Source: an uncultured virus (IMG/VR IMGVR_UViG_3300003321_000657) (Duplodnaviria; Heunggongvirae; Uroviricota; Caudoviricetes). From it: a stretch of DNA of 64,000 bases. Both the position numbers and the translations under genes were made by a program. Location: the IMG/VR virus record IMGVR_UViG_3300003321_000657. The stretch is one strand, 5' to 3'. The notes under the pieces were generated by a model. It was given only the letters and a program-made list of their open reading frames with translations. It searched no databases and had not been told where the DNA came from. Of this stretch, positions 1 through 28,747 are shown piece after piece (the stretch's first letter is position 1; every line of letters starts with the position of its first letter).

Positions 1-870
1 AAAAACGTTTCCGCTTAATCCTCCAGAGCCGCTCAAGCCACCGGCAGCAGATCCGATCAGGGTGTTTTGATTTCCAGTGGTTACATTGCTTCCGGCCAGA
101 GACCCGACGAAGGTGTTGTCTCCATTCGTCAGGATGGTTCCAGCCTGAAACCCGATCAAGGTATTGTTGTCCTGAGCTCCTCCGCTTGTAACCGTCAAAG
201 CGGCTCCAGCCTGACTTCCAACTATGGTATTCTGCTTAGAAGTTGAGACGAGCTTTCCCGCCTGATTGCCAACGAACGTATTGTCATTTCCGGTAGTGAG
301 AGCGTTTCCCGCACTGCCGCTTCCGAGGACGATATTACGCGACCCCTGTGTGCTCGCTCCGATCGATCCAGTGCCTTGGACTTGTATCGCAGCTCCGCTT
401 CCGACTATCATCGTGGCGGTTGTGTTCGTTCCGCTGGTGATAGTCGCGAACGAAGCTCCTCCACTGCCCGGATCTCCCTGCACAAACGCCTGCCCGAAAG
501 TGCAGGTCATTAGCGCATTCGGGTTGCCAGAACCTACACCCGTGATGCGGATGCGGTAGTTATCGCTGGCTGTACTGGAGAAGCTGAAGTTGTAGTGGAA
601 GTTGCTGCGCACACCACCGGGGATATTCCCAGTGTAGCTCTGCACGACCGTATTGGTCGTCGCATCGAACAGATCGATCGTGAAGTTAACGTCGATCGGA
701 GCGCCCATAAAGACATTGATGGCGATGTTTGAAATTTCACCGTTGGCCATGGTGAAATTGTTGCCGCTCACGGTGATATTCGTGTTGTTGATCAGTCCGG
801 CGATCGCCAAAGTCGTGGGCGAGCTGCCGACCACCGTCGTGCCGAAGTTGAGCAAGCCTGAACTAGACAT
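1..870 (-). CDS. Spike/fiber protein paralog 1 (truncated by window edge)
   Basis: Translated by hand from ATG 870: MSSSGLLNFGTTVVGSSPTT... The N-terminus is paralogous to 2135..4420 and is followed by NTxxGxxAG beta-roll repeats. Confidence 0.75.
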   Translation of the reverse strand, partial: MSSSGLLNFGTTVVGSSPTTLAIAGLINNTNITVSGNNFTMANGEISNIAINVFMGAPIDVNFTIDLFDATTNTVVQSYTGNIPGGVRSNFHYNFSFSSTASDNYRIRITGVGSGNPNALMTCTFGQAFVQGDPGSGGASFATITSGTNTTATMIVGSGAAIQVQGTGSIGASTQGSRNIVLGSGSAGNALTTGNDNTFVGNQAGKLVSTSKQNTIVGSQAGAALTVTSGGAQDNNTLIGFQAGTILTNGDNTFVGSLAGSNVTTGNQNTLIGSAAGGLSGSGGLSGNVF

Positions 871-888
871 ATTGCGTTACTCCCCTAC

Positions 889-1950
889 CTACAGTTGTGA
901 ATCCAAGGTGTAATGCCCGGTCAACTCATTGCTGTCGGTTCCGGCCGTAACCTTTACGCCGCAGCCGGAAAGACCAATGTTTTGCGATGTGACGGCTACG
1001 TTCGCTCCCGGTCCTGTCGTGTCTCGCCAATTGGCAGTGGTTCCGGCCGGTGTCAGTAGTGTCACGGTCGGCGTCTTTGGCTTGCGCTGTCGGTAACGGA
1101 TCGGAGTGACTGACGTGGTTCCGACCTGCATCGTCTGCACCGACCCTACCAGAGTGTTGGTCGCTGACGGCGTATCGATGTCGTACGACTTCTCGTAGAA
1201 GCGCTCCACTCTGGCCTGATCCTCCGCGGCCGAGAGCGGATACCATGCCGTACGCACGGCTCCGCCGATGTTGAGGTGGCACTCGCCCACATCGAATGTC
1301 TCATTGATCGCCATACTGTCTTCGATCATGATCGCGACGACCAGATTGCTGATACCGCTGCCCGGCATCGTGAACGACACATTCCACGTTCCGATGCTTG
1401 TCCCTGCGCTGGCGGCGCTGATGAGCGTTGTTCCAATGTAGGCCCAGTTGGCATTGAGACTCATCGGACTGGTCGTGAAGTCCGAGATCGGAGCGGTCAT
1501 GGCGTCCGCTGTGCCGGAGAAGTTCAGGAACGCCAAGCGGAACGCGCGCGCTGTCGAGAACTGAATATTGATCTGAAAGTTGACCGTCTGGTTGAGCAGT
1601 CCAAGCGTCACCAGATTCTCGATGCCCTGAAAGATGACCATGCGCCCGGCATTGGTGATCTTTTTGAAGCGGCCGCGGTTAGCCGAGATCCAGCCCGACA
1701 CGCCAGAGTTCGACACGCGCTGATACTGCATGCCAGCATTTTGCTGCGTCATCTTCCAGCAGTCGGCGCCGTAGCTGTTGTCGGAGATGGTGGTCAGCGT
1801 ACCCGGAGTCTGGAGCTGGGCGAAGTTGAAGCCGGGGTTACACAGCAGGTTCTGCTCTGGCCGTGCGCCAGCCGCGAGACTGGCGAGCGCGACGCTGCCG
1901 TCCACGATCTGACTTGAAGAGCTGATGTTGGCTGGCGGTTTACAGATCAT
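889..1950 (-). CDS. Putative spike/receptor-binding protein
   Basis: Beta-rich, with an NLLCNPGFNFAQ motif and a C-terminal RFYEKSY...IRYRQRKPKTPTVTL segment seen in phage fiber proteins. Start moved to ATG 1950 (MICKPPA) on SD spacing. Confidence 0.6.
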   Translation of the reverse strand: MICKPPANISSSSQIVDGSVALASLAAGARPEQNLLCNPGFNFAQLQTPGTLTTISDNSYGADCWKMTQQNAGMQYQRVSNSGVSGWISANRGRFKKITNAGRMVIFQGIENLVTLGLLNQTVNFQINIQFSTARAFRLAFLNFSGTADAMTAPISDFTTSPMSLNANWAYIGTTLISAASAGTSIGTWNVSFTMPGSGISNLVVAIMIEDSMAINETFDVGECHLNIGGAVRTAWYPLSAAEDQARVERFYEKSYDIDTPSATNTLVGSVQTMQVGTTSVTPIRYRQRKPKTPTVTLLTPAGTTANWRDTTGPGANVAVTSQNIGLSGCGVKVTAGTDSNELTGHYTLDSQL

Positions 1951-1971
1951 GTACGTCAATCTCCATCACAT

Positions 1972-2124
1972 CTAACTCACCTTGCGCTTCTTCTGTCGGC
2001 GGCTCTTGACCAGCACCTTAATTTCGCAAATCGTTTCCAAAAAACGATCAGGCACGATTCGCTTGGCTGCCAGATTAGCAGTGCAGACCGGTCCAGCATC
2101 CTGATTTCCGATCGTAATATTCAT
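1972..2124 (-). CDS. Small basic hypothetical protein (50 aa)
   Basis: Manual ORF MNITIGNQDAGPVC...RRQKKRKVS that fills the gap between spike genes. Confidence 0.45.
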   Translation of the reverse strand: MNITIGNQDAGPVCTANLAAKRIVPDRFLETICEIKVLVKSRRQKKRKVS

Positions 2125-2134
2125 TCTTCCCTCG

Positions 2135-26753: not shown

Positions 26754-26769
26754 GGCAGCTCCCGCTGCT

Positions 26770-27030
26770 TCAGCGCATCTTCCGGGCGAACGCCCACGCG
26801 GCCTTGAAGCGCCGCTTGGGACTCATCCGCATCAGCGCGGCGCGGTGCTTGCGCCATACGGCCTTCATCAGGCCAGCGCTCTTGCGGAAACCAGCCGAAG
26901 GCTTCCGGCGACCGCCTGACTTGCGGCGGCGACCGCCACCCCGGCGCTTTCTGCCGAAGAGCTTCTTCTTGCCGATCTTCTTGCACACGAACACCGGGTT
27001 CCGGCGTCGGCGATGTCTGCGTCTGCGCAT
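26770..27030 (-). CDS. Protamine-like Arg-rich protein
   Basis: MRRRRHRRRRNP... Confidence 0.65.
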   Translation of the reverse strand: MRRRRHRRRRNPVFVCKKIGKKKLFGRKRRGGGRRRKSGGRRKPSAGFRKSAGLMKAVWRKHRAALMRMSPKRRFKAAWAFARKMR

Positions 27031-27070
27031 GGCTTTGTCCTTTCTGAAAACGTTTCCTAAAAACCACGCT

Positions 27071-27388
27071 TTACGCTGCGCGCCGATACGCACGACCGGC
27101 TGCCCGCATGCGGGCGCGGATGCCGCCCTTCTTATGGCGGCGCAGCCATTTCTTCATGAACGCGCGCCAGCCGCTGCGGCTGCCCTTGCGCCGACCGCTC
27201 TTGCGGCGACGGCCCTTGCCCTTGCGGCGCTTGCGGCGGTAGCTGCAAACCACCTTGTGGCGAACATGGCAGCGCAGGCGACCGCGCAGGCGGTAGCGGC
27301 GCTTGCCACGGCTGCGGTGAGCTTTCCGACGTCGTTTCATGGCTGTCTTCCTCCGTCTCGGATTCAACACTGTCACAATCTCGGGCAT
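27071..27388 (-). CDS. Protamine-like Arg-rich protein
   Basis: VLNPRRRK; Arg/Lys make up roughly half the residues. Confidence 0.65.
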   Translation of the reverse strand: MPEIVTVLNPRRRKTAMKRRRKAHRSRGKRRYRLRGRLRCHVRHKVVCSYRRKRRKGKGRRRKSGRRKGSRSGWRAFMKKWLRRHKKGGIRARMRAAGRAYRRAA

Positions 27389-27391
27389 GGC

Positions 27392-28747
27392 CTACGCCTT
27401 TCCGAGTAAACCTCTCGACTTCAAAAACAGGTAACCGGCGAATGCGATCGCACCGACCACGCCCGCCTTAACCATCAGACCGCCAACCGAGCCGGTCAGA
27501 TCTGAGAGCTGTTCCAAGTAACCCTTGGTCTCGATGTCCTTGCCGTGCGCAGCCGCCTGATACAGCGCCAGCTTGTCGACCAGCACCGCCAGACCGGCAG
27601 CCAAGATCGCAGCCGCGATGATCGCGACCGTCGCATCGTCGAGTCCGAAGATTCCAAGTCCGGCCAGCTTCGGCCGCAGGCTCGCTGGAATGTAGGGCGA
27701 CGCCTTCGTGACGAAATCGTTGTAGGCGTCGCGATACTGGCGGTACGCTTGAAACTGTTGCAGGAGCGAGTTCTCGGCCTGCGCCTTCAGCGCCATGGCG
27801 CGATCCTTGTCAGCGCCCGGCGACATGGCGGCAATCTCGCGGCCCTTCTGATCCAGAATGGCCATGTTCGCTCTGTAGGCGGCGTTCTGTTCGTTGATGT
27901 CGGCCAGCGTCTCTCCGCTGACCACGCCGTAGATCGTGACCTTCGTCTCCGCTTCTGTTGCCCCTAGTCCACGCAGTCGGCCAAAACCGCTCAGCTTCGG
28001 ACCGCAGCCGCAACTGCAATTGGGTTTACCGGCGCAAGCGAGACCGCTCATACGCAGACCTCGCAGGCCGGTGAGTTGGTTTGAGTACCGCTGATCTGCG
28101 CTCGACAGAACGCTCTCGACAGAATTCGCATCGATCGACGGAGTCTGGTCCACAGGCCCGCTGTCGTCTTTGGATGACCACCACAATTTGTACGGCCAGT
28201 TGCCGGGAGCTTCCCATCCGAAGGACTGGTTGGGCATGGTTGGATCGCAGTTGACCCAGCCAACCCCGGGCACGTTCGCACGAAAATAGACATGCGAAAA
28301 TTCCGAGGGCCTCTCGCGGTCAGCTTTGATGGTTTTGAACTGACATTGAATGCCGATGCCTTCCAGCATCGAGCAGCCGAGAATGCAGATGGAGTCGCAG
28401 TCAGCCAGCTTGGATTTGAGAATGGCAGCCGCATCTTCGATGTATTCGACCATGGACGGATCGAATGCGTATCGCACTTTGGTTTTGCAGTACTGGTAAA
28501 TCGCCTTGGCGTAGCAGAGGTGATTTTTATTTCCGCAGGCAGGGATGCCGTCGATTTCTCCGTTGATGATTTTACCGACGACTTTTCGCACTTCGAAGTC
28601 ACGCTTGCCGCGGGACACGAGTTTCTGCATGCGATCAATGGTTGCGGCCGTACCGGCATCGCCGTCAGGGATAGATTCCCGAACGTGATGGCTGTTGAGA
28701 CCAGCAGCAATGTCGACAAGCGAAGAATCGCGTAAGACATGAAACAC
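27392..28747 (-). CDS. Transglutaminase-like cysteine protease with C-terminal TM segments
   Basis: ADCDS...FSHVY...WVNCDPT Cys-His-Asp triad; first gene of the structural block. Confidence 0.8.
   Translation of the reverse strand: MFHVLRDSSLVDIAAGLNSHHVRESIPDGDAGTAATIDRMQKLVSRGKRDFEVRKVVGKIINGEIDGIPACGNKNHLCYAKAIYQYCKTKVRYAFDPSMVEYIEDAAAILKSKLADCDSICILGCSMLEGIGIQCQFKTIKADRERPSEFSHVYFRANVPGVGWVNCDPTMPNQSFGWEAPGNWPYKLWWSSKDDSGPVDQTPSIDANSVESVLSSADQRYSNQLTGLRGLRMSGLACAGKPNCSCGCGPKLSGFGRLRGLGATEAETKVTIYGVVSGETLADINEQNAAYRANMAILDQKGREIAAMSPGADKDRAMALKAQAENSLLQQFQAYRQYRDAYNDFVTKASPYIPASLRPKLAGLGIFGLDDATVAIIAAAILAAGLAVLVDKLALYQAAAHGKDIETKGYLEQLSDLTGSVGGLMVKAGVVGAIAFAGYLFLKSRGLLGKA

What the first reader, a model, noticed from the sequence alone, without database searches (positions are those of the whole stretch)
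1..28747. Large tailless, membrane-containing jelly-roll virus architecture
Seen: a 29-kb structural block with no recognisable terminase, portal, HK97 capsid or tail genes, but with beta-rich capsid-like proteins, about 20 TM proteins, spikes and basic core proteins. Known: this layout fits Varidnaviria-type viruses, whose characterised bacterial members (PRD1, PM2, P23-77) have 10-17 kb genomes. Inference: a much larger, probably uncharacterised lineage infecting a diderm host, given the spanin-like pair.
Basis: partly seen in the sequence, partly recalled or inferred. Interest (0 to 1): 0.82.

Follow-up and report, generated by a model that had tools for sequence, protein, structure and literature searches.

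The report
Large tailless jelly-roll phage virion module
This stretch most likely holds the particle-building genes of an uncultured bacterial virus that builds a tailless, membrane-lined shell from jelly-roll proteins, on a genome several times larger than any described bacterial virus of that design.

Summary
In window 1-28747, three HMM libraries find no terminase, portal, HK97 capsid, tail tube, sheath or baseplate gene, only weak spike and fibre matches. The 415-aa protein (20880-22127) folds as a double jelly-roll (DJR): Z 10.2 to the STIV capsid protein, 9.8 PRD1 P3, 9.4 PM2 P2, tied with cellular DUF2961/GH172 proteins at Z 11. It has two neighbouring paralogs, conserved as three ortholog groups. 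The two barrels still match each other in sequence (hhalign 99.5%, E 5e-23). The 304-aa paralog is predicted to trimerise (0.81 against control 0.01).

A better-conserved 252-aa protein (23661-24419) looks like a single jelly-roll. About 15-22 small membrane proteins, a run of Arg-rich proteins and spike-like proteins complete the block.

The only characterised relative is Salisaeta phage SSIP-1 (44 kb, T=49, internal membrane). Its gp34 matches the window's transglutaminase-fold enzyme (E 2.5e-20), and two viral-library models that fit its gp46 and gp47 by length are the best fold matches, in the same gene order.

An adenain-like Gly tag is enriched in the virion proteins (19 against 4.7 expected).

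The contig is 129,915 bp. I could not read its other half, so a packaging ATPase or hidden tailed-phage genes remain untested. I rate it a new variant of a known kind, of high interest.

The parts
27392..28747 (-). First gene of the virion block. A 451-aa transglutaminase/papain-fold cysteine enzyme: catalytic domain at about residues 36-172, a long linker, and two C-terminal membrane helices. Candidate virion maturation protease, or an entry enzyme.
   Evidence: Pfam Transglut_core, E 4.2e-9. BLASTP to SSIP-1 gp34, annotated 'structural protein': E 2.5e-20 and 6e-22, with Cys, His and Asp aligned in 'ADCD', 'HVY' and 'DPT'. Strict TM segments at 361-379 and 423-441. Gly-tag matches at 252, 258 and 361 in the linker, plus two (128, 159) inside the catalytic domain.
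25160..27388 (-). Run of four very basic, Arg/Lys-rich proteins: 27071-27388, 26770-27093, 26127-26753 and 25160-26122. The last has a basic N-terminal half followed by a Gly-rich membrane region. Candidate DNA-condensing core proteins.
   Evidence: pI 11.6-12.0 and R+K fraction 0.17-0.46. GC3 is highest in the named frames. 26127-26753 has 15 homologs, some on contigs of 105-151 kb. No Pfam, PHROG or NCBIfam match. The function is inferred.
24519..25112 (-). Strongly codon-biased protein of about 192 aa, Gly/Ala-rich, carrying several Gly tags. Candidate abundant membrane-associated virion protein.
   Evidence: Codon score 0.328 and GC3 0.82. Tag matches at 127 and 179 (a-priori motif) and at 107, 127 and 146 (extended motif). 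No family match.
23661..24419 (-). 252-aa single beta-sandwich protein (single jelly-roll-like). It is the best-conserved and most codon-biased gene of the block. Candidate second capsid protein or penton.
   Evidence: GC3 0.87. 80 homologs, mostly at 50-80% identity, on contigs up to 164,528 bp. AF2 pLDDT 71.6. Best structural matches have Z 6.9 or less: HHIV-2 6h82_b, HCIV-1 6h9c_D, SPV1, P23-77 VP16. This is below the level that stands out on its own. Best viral-library hit is I1ZBH9, 211 aa, E 3.2e-5. Atlas: 30 unnamed clusters, the top ones at 0.97.
22213..23328 (-). Homing-endonuclease gene (LAGLIDADG, with a zinc-finger or HNH-like N-terminus) inserted between the two capsid-type genes.
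   Evidence: Pfam LAGLIDADG_1 E 1.6e-6. phrog_5046 E 1.8e-20. Local GC dip to 0.52. Relatives' contigs of 2,231 and 3,294 bp appear to hold both capsid-type genes, which leaves no room for it (inferred from equal contig lengths).
20880..22127 (-). 415-aa double jelly-roll protein carrying an inserted small beta-domain (residues 79-150). Candidate major capsomer protein.
   Evidence: AF2 pLDDT 80.7, pTM 0.74. VIA-align: STIV MCP Z 10.2 (259 aligned, rmsd 5.2), PRD1 P3 9.8, PM2 P2 9.4, FLiP 8.6, phiCjT23 8.3, PBCV-1 7.8. Cellular DUF2961/GH172 proteins score 10.5-11.0, a tie. Best whole-fold viral-library hit is I1ZBI0, 256 aa, TMt 0.56. The insert matches domains of phage tail proteins at Z 6-8.
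18835..20007 (-). Second double jelly-roll paralog. The ORF is 390 aa, with a probable start near 19854 that gives about 339 aa.
   Evidence: BLASTP to the 415-aa protein E 3e-11 and to the 304-aa protein E 3e-20. 14 of 106 family proteins are closest to it. Its fold is inferred from paralogy.
17915..18829 (-). Third double jelly-roll paralog (304 aa), predicted to form a head-to-tail homotrimer.
   Evidence: BLASTP E 3e-20 and 9e-4. 10 of 106 family proteins are closest to it. Trimer prediction: score 0.81 against best control 0.01, with interface residues 171-299 of one copy against 16-158 of the next.
17268..17912 (-). Penton or spike-base candidate, unresolved.
   Evidence: No family match. 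Atlas: unnamed viral clusters at 0.90-0.91. A cluster in which 32% of members carry PRD1_P5_spike_N scores 0.88, which is a lead only.
4424..17314 (-). Cluster of about 25 mostly small proteins, many with one membrane anchor. It includes Pro/Gln/Tyr-rich proteins (5736-7439, 10515-12158, 16086-16700, 16871-17314), a caspase-fold lipoprotein (9457-10533), a second lipoprotein (15497-15817) and a fibre-repeat protein (15089-15475). Candidate internal-membrane and vertex proteins.
   Evidence: Strict TM calls and two lipoboxes. Sequences. Peptidase_C14 E 1.9e-15. phrog_892 E 2.2e-9. Gly tags in 5736-7439, 7716-8357, 10515-12158, 12427-12789, 12793-13188, 16086-16700 and 16871-17254.
1..4420 (-). 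Spike-like proteins: 2135-4420 (761 aa), 1-870 (runs off the window) and 889-1959. The first two share an N-terminal domain of about 130 aa and then diverge, as alternative receptor-binding proteins that dock on one adaptor would.
   Evidence: BLASTP E 6e-98, with residues 61-120 identical. Weak phrog_4636 tail-spike hits. 889-1959 matches phrog_27782, E 3.3e-14. 889-1959 and 15089-15475 share their first residues.
28945..29186 (-). Three tRNA genes immediately upstream of the virion block.
   Evidence: ARAGORN. Rfam tRNA at 62.5, 49.9 and 29.2 bits.

Best explanation
Window 1-28747 is most of the virion (morphogenesis) module of a large uncultured bacterial virus. [quoted passage not shown]

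Shown here:
- Three paralogous double jelly-roll (DJR) proteins. The fold of one was predicted, and the other two are linked to it by sequence.
- The two barrels of the DJR are still recognisably homologous in sequence.
- One paralog is predicted to form a cyclic trimer.
- A better-conserved single-barrel protein lies just upstream.
- A transglutaminase-fold Cys-His-Asp enzyme is homologous to an SSIP-1 structural protein.
- A Gly-hydrophobic-Gly tag is enriched in the virion proteins.

Inferred mechanism:
- DJR trimers form pseudo-hexameric capsomers over a lipid vesicle studded with the roughly 15-22 small membrane proteins.
- The 252-aa protein is either the penton or a second shell protein.
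- The three DJR paralogs fill different lattice positions of a large capsid.
- Spikes with a shared N-terminal adaptor sit at the vertices.
- The DNA is condensed by the Arg-rich proteins.
- The membrane-anchored cysteine enzyme cuts precursor proteins at the Gly tags during maturation.

The DNA-packaging enzyme is not in the window and remains unknown.
For: 1. DJR fold. The model has pLDDT 80.7. The Foldseek-independent search of 48,161 chains places it with STIV MCP (Z 10.2), PRD1 P3 (9.8), PM2 P2 (9.4), FLiP (8.6), phiCjT23 (8.3) and PBCV-1 (7.8), over residues of about 25-384.

2. Paralogy and family structure. Pairwise E values are 3e-11, 3e-20 and 9e-4. Of 106 DJR-sized family proteins, 82, 14 and 10 are closest to the 415-, 390- and 304-aa paralog respectively.

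3. Internal repeat. The barrel-1 profile matches the barrel-2 profile at 99.5% probability, E 5.1e-23, over 113 columns. The best of 20 column shuffles reaches 0.9% and the reversed version 0.4%.

4. Trimer. The model supports binding; it does not show it. Score 0.81 against a best control of 0.01. The mark was reached by 20 of 30 proteins solved as pairs and by 1 of 23 solved as single chains. The runs agree in at least 43% of contacts, and the partner's pLDDT is at least 75. The job differs from the calibration (three copies, my own alignment).

5. Links to SSIP-1.
- gp34 against window 27392-28747: E 2.5e-20, with the catalytic triad conserved.
- The best viral-library hits of my two models are I1ZBH9 (211 aa) and I1ZBI0 (256 aa). 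These match gp46 and gp47 in length and adjacency, and the gene order is the same. The identity of those entries is inferred.
- gp47 against the barrel profile: 80.7% probability, E 1.3e-5.
- SSIP-1 is described as tailless, with an internal membrane, T=49, 44 kb and two MCP types (passages of PMC6356626, PMC6260650 and PMC4958249).

6. No tailed-phage hallmark gene in the whole 64-kb window, in three libraries.

7. Membrane and basic proteins.

8. The Gly tag [MLIV]xG[MLIVF]G occurs 19 times against a shuffle mean of 4.7. None of 1000 shuffles reached 19. It occurs 0 times in 10,678 residues of non-virion proteins.

9. Bacterial host. SD-like motifs precede 28 of 47 starts, against 9% of random sites. 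There are two lipoboxes.

10. The capsid-type and basic proteins recur on contigs of 100-170 kb.
Against: - Only 64 kb of the 129,915-bp contig could be read. Terminase, portal, HK97 capsid and tail genes could lie in the unseen half. Exact-match searches for the contig found nothing. No relative's DNA was recovered except SSIP-1 itself.
- No FtsK/HerA-type packaging ATPase, the second hallmark of these viruses, is in the window. In SSIP-1 the predicted ATPase gp40 lies between gp34 and gp46, but the matching interval of the window holds none.
- The top structural matches are cellular DUF2961/GH172 enzymes (Z 10.5-11.0), tied with the capsid proteins. By recall, those enzymes also form trimers. 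So neither the fold nor the trimer proves a capsid role.
- Foldseek alone ranked other tandem beta-sandwich proteins first, with TM of only 0.26-0.35.
- The 252-aa protein's matches (Z 6.9 or less) are within the range the tool calls common.
- Sequence-profile links to gp46 and gp47 are weak or absent: E 0.028 and 0.26.
- Weak tail-spike and tail-fibre hits exist.
- No particle, lipid or proteome has been seen.
Confidence: 0.8

Rival explanations
1. It is a divergent tailed phage (Caudoviricetes). On this reading the head, packaging and tail genes lie in the unseen ~66 kb of the contig. The window's block would hold only the fibres, spikes and accessory membrane proteins. The DJR proteins would be GH172/DUF2961-like carbohydrate enzymes or receptor-binding modules rather than capsid proteins.
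For: - Half of the contig is unread.
- Weak PHROG tail-spike and tail-fibre hits.
- The highest structural scores belong to cellular GH172/DUF2961 proteins, Z 10.5-11.0.
- The inserted domain resembles domains of phage tail proteins.
- tRNAs, homing endonucleases, and RecE-, Dam- and helicase-type genes are ordinary for large tailed phages.
Against: - No Pfam DUF2961 match or any other sequence match to those enzymes.
- The three DJR paralogs sit among small membrane proteins and Arg-rich proteins, which is not a layout of tail modules.
- The DJR gene and its 252-aa neighbour have the strongest codon bias of the block, as expected of abundant shell proteins.
- The only sequence-related characterised virion protein is from a tailless membrane phage.
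- The gene order matches SSIP-1.
- The 35 kb of the window outside the block also lacks every hallmark gene.
Confidence: 0.13
2. It is a eukaryotic large DNA virus (Nucleocytoviricota-like or egovirus-like). These viruses also have DJR capsid proteins and genomes above 100 kb.
For: - A DJR fold that also matches PBCV-1, faustovirus, EhV and melbournevirus capsid proteins at Z 5.5-7.8.
- A contig of about 130 kb.
- Glycosyltransferase and methyltransferase genes near the virion block.
Against: - Shine-Dalgarno-type motifs precede 28 of 47 starts, against 9% by chance.
- Long same-strand gene runs with overlapping stops and starts.
- Bacterial lipobox signals.
- Phage-type RecE-like exonuclease, Dam, DUF1064 resolvase and HNH genes.
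- The best DJR matches are prokaryotic viruses.
- None of the replication or transcription core genes of the eukaryotic giant viruses appeared in the scans of the window.
Confidence: 0.02
3. This is the same virus type, but with a different shell plan. The 252-aa single-barrel protein (like SSIP-1 gp46) would build most of the shell, and the DJR trimers would occupy only special sites. This is a rival on mechanism only, nested inside the best explanation.
For: - The 252-aa gene has the highest GC3 (0.87) and is far better conserved than the DJR: mostly 50-80% identity over 80 proteins, against 35-54% over 13.
- SSIP-1 is described as having two MCP types (PMC6356626 passage), and is listed as 'single jelly roll?' in Table 1 of PMC6260650.
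- An earlier unchecked note (e1-5625265) proposes this plan for a relative of about 128 kb.
Against: - The DJR 415-aa gene is also strongly codon-biased (score 0.315, against 0.294 for the 252-aa gene).
- Three conserved DJR ortholog groups are many for a minor role.
- The single-barrel assignment itself is weak, at Z 6.9 or less.
Confidence: 0.3

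Closest known systems
[quoted passage not shown]
   Same: - The transglutaminase-fold virion protein is homologous by sequence (gp34, E 2.5e-20, triad conserved).
- A pair of adjacent capsid-type genes lies in the same order, a small single-barrel-like gene followed by a larger one. The viral-library entries that fit gp46 and gp47 by length are the best fold matches of my two models.
- gp47 gives a weak profile match.
- SSIP-1 also has almost no database similarity (PMC6356626 passage).
   Different: - SSIP-1 is 43.8 kb. This window alone is 64 kb and its contig is 130 kb.
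- SSIP-1 has one gp47-type gene, and this element has three DJR paralogs.
- SSIP-1 carries a P-loop ATPase (gp40) inside the module, and none is found here.
- BLASTP found no counterpart of the Arg-rich run in SSIP-1.
- The capsid proteins are alike in fold only.
- SSIP-1 comes from a hypersaline habitat. This DNA occurs in runs labelled root metagenome, from one study.
PRD1 (Tectiviridae), PM2 (Corticoviridae), STIV (Turriviridae): small DJR viruses with internal membranes
   Same: DJR fold at Z 9.4-10.2 over most of the chain. Predicted head-to-tail trimer. Many small membrane proteins and vertex spikes in the virion module.
   Different: - Their genomes are 10-18 kb (PMC6260650 Table 1).
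- Each has one DJR gene.
- No sequence similarity.
- By recall, their two barrels show no recognisable sequence similarity to each other. Here they match at E 5e-23.
- Their packaging ATPase is a hallmark, and none was seen here.
Adenoviruses (functional analogy only)
   Same: DJR capsid protein. Arg-rich DNA-condensing core proteins. A cysteine protease that matures virion precursors at (M/I/L)-x-G-x-G-type sites (the adenain consensus is recalled, not from a call). This resembles the Gly tag plus cysteine enzyme found here.
   Different: Eukaryotic host and no internal membrane. By recall, adenain is a different cysteine-protease family from the transglutaminase core found here. No cleavage has been shown here.
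Cellular DUF2961 / GH172 proteins (4kq7, 8ic8, 7v1v)
   Same: The highest structural scores, Z 10.5-11.0. They are described as cellular homologs of DJR capsid proteins in PMC8812541, of which I saw only the title and the start of the abstract in a search listing.
   Different: No sequence or Pfam match. The gene context here is a virion module, not a carbohydrate-use locus.
P23-77, HHIV-2 and HCIV-1 (viruses with two single-barrel capsid proteins)
   Same: The 252-aa protein's best matches include HHIV-2, HCIV-1 and P23-77 VP16/VP17 chains at Z 4.9-6.9. Their capsids are built from more than one jelly-roll protein (PMC4958249 passage).
   Different: Those viruses have no DJR protein, whereas this one has three. 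Their genomes are listed as 17-31 kb (30 kb for HHIV-2; the rest is recalled).

Membership tests
Varidnaviria with DJR capsid proteins (Bamfordvirae-type, PRD1-adenovirus lineage) | Major capsid protein with two jelly-roll barrels in one chain | tested here: met
   Predicted model only. Z 10.2, 9.8 and 9.4 to the STIV, PRD1 and PM2 capsid proteins over about 250 aligned residues. Cellular DUF2961 proteins score equally. The orientation of the barrels relative to the shell cannot be tested.
Varidnaviria with DJR capsid proteins (Bamfordvirae-type, PRD1-adenovirus lineage) | Trimeric, pseudo-hexameric capsomer | tested here: met
   Prediction only, and for the 304-aa paralog. Score 0.81 against a best control of 0.01 (mark reached by 20 of 30 solved pairs and 1 of 23 single chains). 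Runs agree in at least 43% of contacts, and partner pLDDT is at least 75. Barrel 2 of one copy contacts barrel 1 of the next.
Varidnaviria with DJR capsid proteins (Bamfordvirae-type, PRD1-adenovirus lineage) | FtsK/HerA-superfamily (A32/P9-like) genome-packaging ATPase | tested here: inconclusive
   None in the 64-kb window. The only true P-loop protein is the helicase at 58348-60012. About 66 kb of the contig is unread.
Varidnaviria with DJR capsid proteins (Bamfordvirae-type, PRD1-adenovirus lineage) | Single jelly-roll penton protein | tested here: inconclusive
   There are two candidates. The 252-aa protein has Z 6.9 or less to viral single-barrel proteins. For 17268-17912 there is only an Atlas lead.
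Varidnaviria with DJR capsid proteins (Bamfordvirae-type, PRD1-adenovirus lineage) | Internal lipid membrane | not testable with these tools
   Indirect only: 15 of 42 proteins have a strict TM segment, against 1 among the ORFs at 29.4-45.3 kb.
SSIP-1-like phages (a single isolate, no formal taxon) | gp34-type transglutaminase-fold virion protein | tested here: met
   E 2.5e-20 and 6e-22, with the Cys/His/Asp positions conserved.
SSIP-1-like phages (a single isolate, no formal taxon) | Adjacent gp46/gp47-type capsid genes | tested here: inconclusive
   Fold-level best hits are I1ZBH9 and I1ZBI0, whose lengths equal those of gp46 and gp47. The gene order is the same. Sequence profiles: gp47 80.7% probability but E 0.028. 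gp46 shows no signal. That the library entries are gp46 and gp47 is inferred.
SSIP-1-like phages (a single isolate, no formal taxon) | gp40-type P-loop ATPase inside the virion module | tested here: not met
   The interval between the gp34-like gene and the capsid genes (27.4-24.5 kb) holds only Arg-rich and membrane proteins. An ATPase elsewhere on the contig is not excluded.
Caudoviricetes (tailed phages) | HK97-fold capsid protein, portal and large terminase | tested here: inconclusive
   None among all window proteins scanned against Pfam, PHROGs and NCBIfam. Half of the contig is unread, and very divergent versions could escape HMMs.
DUF2961 / GH172 enzymes | Sequence membership in Pfam DUF2961 | tested here: not met
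   No Pfam match at E <= 0.01 for any of the three paralogs. No PDB sequence match for the single sequence or the profile. Only the fold is alike.

The most novel reading that the evidence does not exclude
Large capsids and genomes may have arisen a second time in DJR viruses, independently, on the prokaryotic side. This would be a widespread, unnamed lineage of roughly 100-170-kb tailless membrane phages. Its shell would use three ancient DJR paralogs that still carry the sequence trace of the single-to-double barrel duplication. Its DNA would be condensed by protamine-like proteins. Its virion proteins would be matured by a membrane-anchored cysteine protease at adenain-like Gly tags. It might also lack the FtsK/HerA packaging motor.
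Probability: 0.45. Interest if true: 0.92.

Novelty: new variant of a known kind. Interest (0 to 1): 0.8.

Why it matters
Described bacterial and archaeal viruses with jelly-roll capsids and internal membranes have genomes of about 9-44 kb (Table 1 of PMC6260650).

A 2026 perspective argues that small DJR viruses have non-expandable genomes. [quoted passage not shown] A bacterial DJR virus of at least 64 kb, and probably about 130 kb, would be a second and independent case. That would make the question of how such capsids scale up testable in a bacterial system.

Three further points add value:
- The DJR proteins here still show barrel-to-barrel sequence homology. This is rare direct evidence for the proposed origin of the double barrel by duplication of a single one.
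- The Gly tag together with the cysteine enzyme suggests proteolytic virion maturation. That step is known from adenoviruses.
- The 2.9-million-contig viral collection yielded no relative except SSIP-1. Standard virus-detection pipelines may therefore miss this lineage.

Tried and rejected
Reaching the rest of the genome or relatives' DNA:
- No whole genome is held for the window.
- An exact 50-base stretch of the window was not found in viral contigs or metagenome contigs.
- The search for related loci found no relative with the 415-aa protein or its alignments in viral contigs. It found none with the alignment of P0011, P0006 and P0012, or with P0011 alone, in genome contigs. It found none with P0010 in metagenome contigs.
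- The 252-aa family alignment found nothing in viral contigs.
- The transglutaminase alignment found only SSIP-1's own copy.
- tblastn of the 772-aa, 415-aa and 252-aa window proteins against the phage records, and of P0011 and the 252-aa protein against the plasmid records, found nothing.
- Cluster look-ups gave no names or accessions.

Sequence-level links to solved structures:
- None for the 415-aa protein, the 772-aa protein, profiles A1 and A3, or the transglutaminase-like protein. The one exception is a weak hit of the inserted domain to a distal tail protein (E 0.0048).

Sequencing runs:
- Three runs of one study hold the DNA, and one of them may be its source. No RNA holder was listed.
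- The contig pieces listed in table 8 were identical to the window except for one single-base difference and one 45-base piece at 80% identity. That gave no substitution pattern to test reading frames, and no evidence that the endonuclease gene is polymorphic.
- The listed 'joints' had only about 21 letters on a side, so I treat them as spurious.

Other negative or unusable results:
- Terminator and promoter scans of 15-30 kb were at chance level: 15 found against 14.1 expected, and 2 against 5.1.
- A laxer membrane-segment test flagged beta-strands of spike and capsid proteins, so I dropped it.
- The 252-aa family shows no profile similarity to either DJR barrel.
- Foldseek alone did not bring up capsid proteins for the DJR model. 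The top hits were PHM and PNGase F, with low TM. Its viral-library list was dominated by tail and fibre proteins that match only the inserted domain.
- The extended tag [MLIV]xG[MLIVFA][GAN]D (10 found against 0.7 expected) was defined after looking at the data, so I do not count it as a test.
- The original SSIP-1 paper (PMC3344969) is not held. What I say about SSIP-1's particle comes from passages of later papers.
- The spanin pair and the diderm host found no support.

Full report
**What is in the window.** The window holds a long minus-strand gene run (1 to 44584) and a plus-strand run (45544 to 64000). The plus-strand run carries ordinary phage replication and recombination genes: a RecE-like exonuclease, Dam methylase, a DUF1064 resolvase and a helicase. 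Upstream of the virion block, the minus-strand run holds an HNH endonuclease, a glycosyltransferase, three FkbM-type methyltransferases and many unknown genes. No whole genome is held for the window. The window's own 415-aa protein is recorded on a contig of 129,915 bp, so about half of the element is out of view.

**Checking the observation.** I refined the gene calls with a codon-usage model. Several longest-ORF calls turned out to be wrong-frame. Pfam, PHROGs and NCBIfam scans of the first-pass and refined proteins found no terminase, portal, HK97 capsid, tail tube, sheath or baseplate family anywhere in the 64 kb. In the block there are only weak tail-spike and tail-fibre matches on repeat-rich proteins (E 2e-9 to 4e-5), a caspase domain, a LAGLIDADG endonuclease and a transglutaminase core. 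A strict hydrophobicity test flags 15 of 42 block proteins, against 1 among the ORFs at 29.4-45.3 kb. By eye about seven more small proteins carry shorter anchors. Seven of 42 have pI >= 11, and four of these form a run at 25160-27388. Their frames are supported by GC3. One of them has 15 homologs. The gene given as 23401-24419 is really 23661-24419, and no spanin pair could be confirmed.

**The capsid-type proteins.** The proteins at 20880-22127 (415 aa), 18835-20007 and 17915-18829 (304 aa) are paralogs (E 3e-11, 3e-20 and 9e-4).
- *Fold of the 415-aa protein.* With a 13-sequence alignment it folds with pLDDT 80.7. Foldseek alone gave only tandem beta-sandwich enzymes with low TM. A search of 48,161 chains that does not depend on Foldseek placed the model among double jelly-roll (DJR) proteins: STIV MCP Z 10.2, PRD1 P3 9.8, PM2 P2 9.4, FLiP 8.6, phiCjT23 8.3 and PBCV-1 7.8. 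Cellular DUF2961/GH172 proteins tie at 10.5-11.0.
- *Inserted domain.* Residues 79-150 form an inserted small beta-domain of a kind found in phage tail proteins.
- *Family size.* A profile search of 1.84 billion representatives gave 2629 hits. Many of these are giant proteins that match only the insert. The DJR-sized hits sort into three groups, closest to the 415-, 390- and 304-aa paralogs in 82, 14 and 10 of 106 cases. For that count I dropped 56 of the 146 newly listed proteins for length. The triplication is therefore old and conserved.

**A double barrel that still remembers its duplication.** The pairwise BLASTs aligned barrel 1 of one paralog with barrel 2 of another. Across an alignment of 106 family members, the barrel-1 profile matches the barrel-2 profile at 99.5% probability (E 5.1e-23, 113 columns). 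Column-shuffled controls reach 0.9% at most in 20 tries, and the reversed control 0.4%. To my knowledge (recalled, not tested here) the two barrels of known DJR capsid proteins show no such sequence similarity.

**Trimer.** Three copies of the 304-aa paralog, with an 11-row alignment, gave a score of 0.81 against a best control of 0.01. The mark was reached by 20 of 30 proteins solved as pairs and by 1 of 23 solved as single chains. The runs agree in at least 43% of contacts, and the partner's pLDDT is at least 75. The job differs from the calibration. Barrel 2 of one copy contacts barrel 1 of the next, as in a pseudo-hexameric capsomer. The model supports binding; it does not show it. By recall, the cellular GH172 proteins also form trimers.

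**The 252-aa protein.** 23661-24419 has the highest GC3 of the block (0.87). It has 80 homologs, mostly at 50-80% identity, on contigs up to 164,528 bp. It folds as one beta-sandwich (pLDDT 71.6). Its best matches are viral single-barrel capsid or penton proteins, but at Z 6.9 or less, which is not decisive. The Atlas places it in a large unnamed family: 30 clusters of at least 50 members each, the top ones at 0.97. It is either a penton or a second shell protein.

**The link to SSIP-1.**
- *Fold matches.* In the viral structure library the best hit of the 252-aa model is I1ZBH9 (211 aa). The best whole-fold hit of the DJR model is I1ZBI0 (256 aa, TMt 0.56). The library gives no names for these entries. 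The SSIP-1 record has adjacent structural genes gp46 (211 aa) and gp47 (256 aa), so I infer that these are the two hits.
- *Sequence links.* SSIP-1 gp34, a structural protein, matches the window's transglutaminase-fold protein (E 2.5e-20), with the Cys, His and Asp positions conserved. gp47 matches the family's barrel profile weakly (80.7%, E 1.3e-5). Other profile tests were not significant.
- *Gene order.* The order is the same in both: enzyme, then the small capsid-type gene, then the large one.
- *What is known of SSIP-1.* Passages of later papers describe it as tailless and icosahedral, with an internal membrane, T=49, about 100 nm, 44-kb circular dsDNA and two MCP types (PMC6356626, PMC6260650, PMC4958249). 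Its predicted packaging ATPase is gp40 (PMC4124505 passage; AAA_25 domain). The matching interval of the window holds no ATPase, and the only true P-loop protein in the window is a helicase.

**A candidate maturation system.** Earlier unchecked notes of this scan proposed a Gly-hydrophobic-Gly tag on virion proteins, cut by the transglutaminase-fold enzyme. I tested their motif here. [MLIV]xG[MLIVF]G occurs 19 times in the block's 9,072 residues, against a shuffle mean of 4.7. None of 1000 shuffles reached 19. It occurs 0 times in 10,678 residues of the window's other proteins. The hits lie mostly in membrane-associated proteins and in the enzyme's own linker. The likeness to the adenovirus protease consensus is recalled. 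No cleavage has been shown.

**Host and habitat.** Shine-Dalgarno-like motifs precede 28 of 47 starts, against 9% of random sites. Two proteins have lipoboxes. The host is therefore a bacterium, and no more can be said. The DNA occurs, with nearly identical sequence, in runs of one study labelled root metagenome.

**Limits.** I could not read the other half of the contig or any close relative's DNA. Hidden tailed-phage genes or a packaging ATPase remain possible, and the total genome size is not established. All structures are predictions.

**Novelty.** Searches of the held literature found no description of bacterial jelly-roll viruses above SSIP-1's size (I judged listings by title and abstract start). 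A 2026 perspective states that the transition to large capsids in this realm apparently happened only once, in eukaryotic viruses (PMC13598248, section 6). Earlier notes of this scan report similar elements of 58-182 kb in other genomes, some on complete circular genomes without a packaging motor. These are unchecked leads, not support. None is a sequence look-alike of this window's two capsid-candidate proteins.

**Verdict.** This is the virion module of a large SSIP-1-like, probably tailless and membrane-containing bacterial virus with three DJR paralogs (confidence 0.8). It is a new variant of a known kind, of high interest.

Noticed in passing
window 28945-29186 (-): Three tRNA genes sit just upstream of the virion block. 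ARAGORN reads one as tRNA-Ile(aat). It calls the other two with irregular anticodon loops ('tc' and 'aatg'), although Rfam scores them as good tRNAs (62.5 and 49.9 bits). An 8-base anticodon loop could mean a frameshift-suppressor-type tRNA, or simply a mis-call. The Pfam PTH2 hit (29103-29450) overlaps one of them.
   Followed up: partly
window 22213-23328 (-): A LAGLIDADG-type homing-endonuclease gene lies between the two capsid-type genes, in a local GC dip. Relatives appear to have the two capsid genes together on contigs of only 2,231 and 3,294 bp, which leaves no room for it. It is therefore probably a lineage-specific insertion (inferred from equal contig lengths). The other runs laid showed no polymorphism.
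   Followed up: partly
window 32750-38169 (-): Three tandem FkbM-type methyltransferase paralogs (33882-36276), a further methyltransferase (32750-33364), and a 543-aa protein with GT8 and GT9 glycosyltransferase domains lie just upstream of the virion block. They could modify virion glycans, as capsid glycosylation does in chlorella viruses (recalled), or host surface sugars.
   Followed up: no
window 20880-22127 (-), residues 79-150: The domain inserted into barrel 1 of the 415-aa DJR protein matches tandem repeats in giant proteins of 700-7,400 aa (up to 22 stretches in one protein) and domains of phage tail proteins. Most family members of about 320 aa lack it. It is probably an exposed tower or adhesion domain acquired by this subgroup.
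   Followed up: partly
window 7468-13188, 20678-20875 and 27392-28747 (-): Many small virion-block proteins end in a hydrophobic segment followed directly by a short Lys/Arg tail, a C-terminal tail-anchor pattern. That would place the basic ends on the DNA side of a membrane. An automatic test caught only 4 of them. I saw the others by eye.
   Followed up: partly
window 42266-44584 (-): The first gene of the long minus-strand run encodes a 772-aa protein that is acidic, coiled-coil and Pro/Gln-rich. It has no match in any library, in the phage records or in PDB sequences. Its role is unknown. It could be a scaffold or tape-measure-like protein.
   Followed up: partly
window 889-1959 and 15089-15475 (-): Two otherwise unrelated proteins begin with nearly the same residues: 9 of the first 12 are identical. 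One matches phrog_27782 and the other is a fibre-repeat protein. The shared start may be a docking peptide or a lipidation or processing signal.
   Followed up: no
window 45544-48424 (+): A RecE-like (YqaJ) exonuclease is followed by an 87-aa ORF and then an unannotated 556-aa protein with a long Pro/Ala-rich tail. By position, the 556-aa protein may be the partner single-strand annealing protein.
   Followed up: no
window 9457-10533 (-): A caspase-fold (Peptidase_C14, E 1.9e-15) protein with a lipoprotein signal sits among the virion membrane proteins. It is a second cysteine peptidase in the module, besides the transglutaminase-fold enzyme.
   Followed up: no
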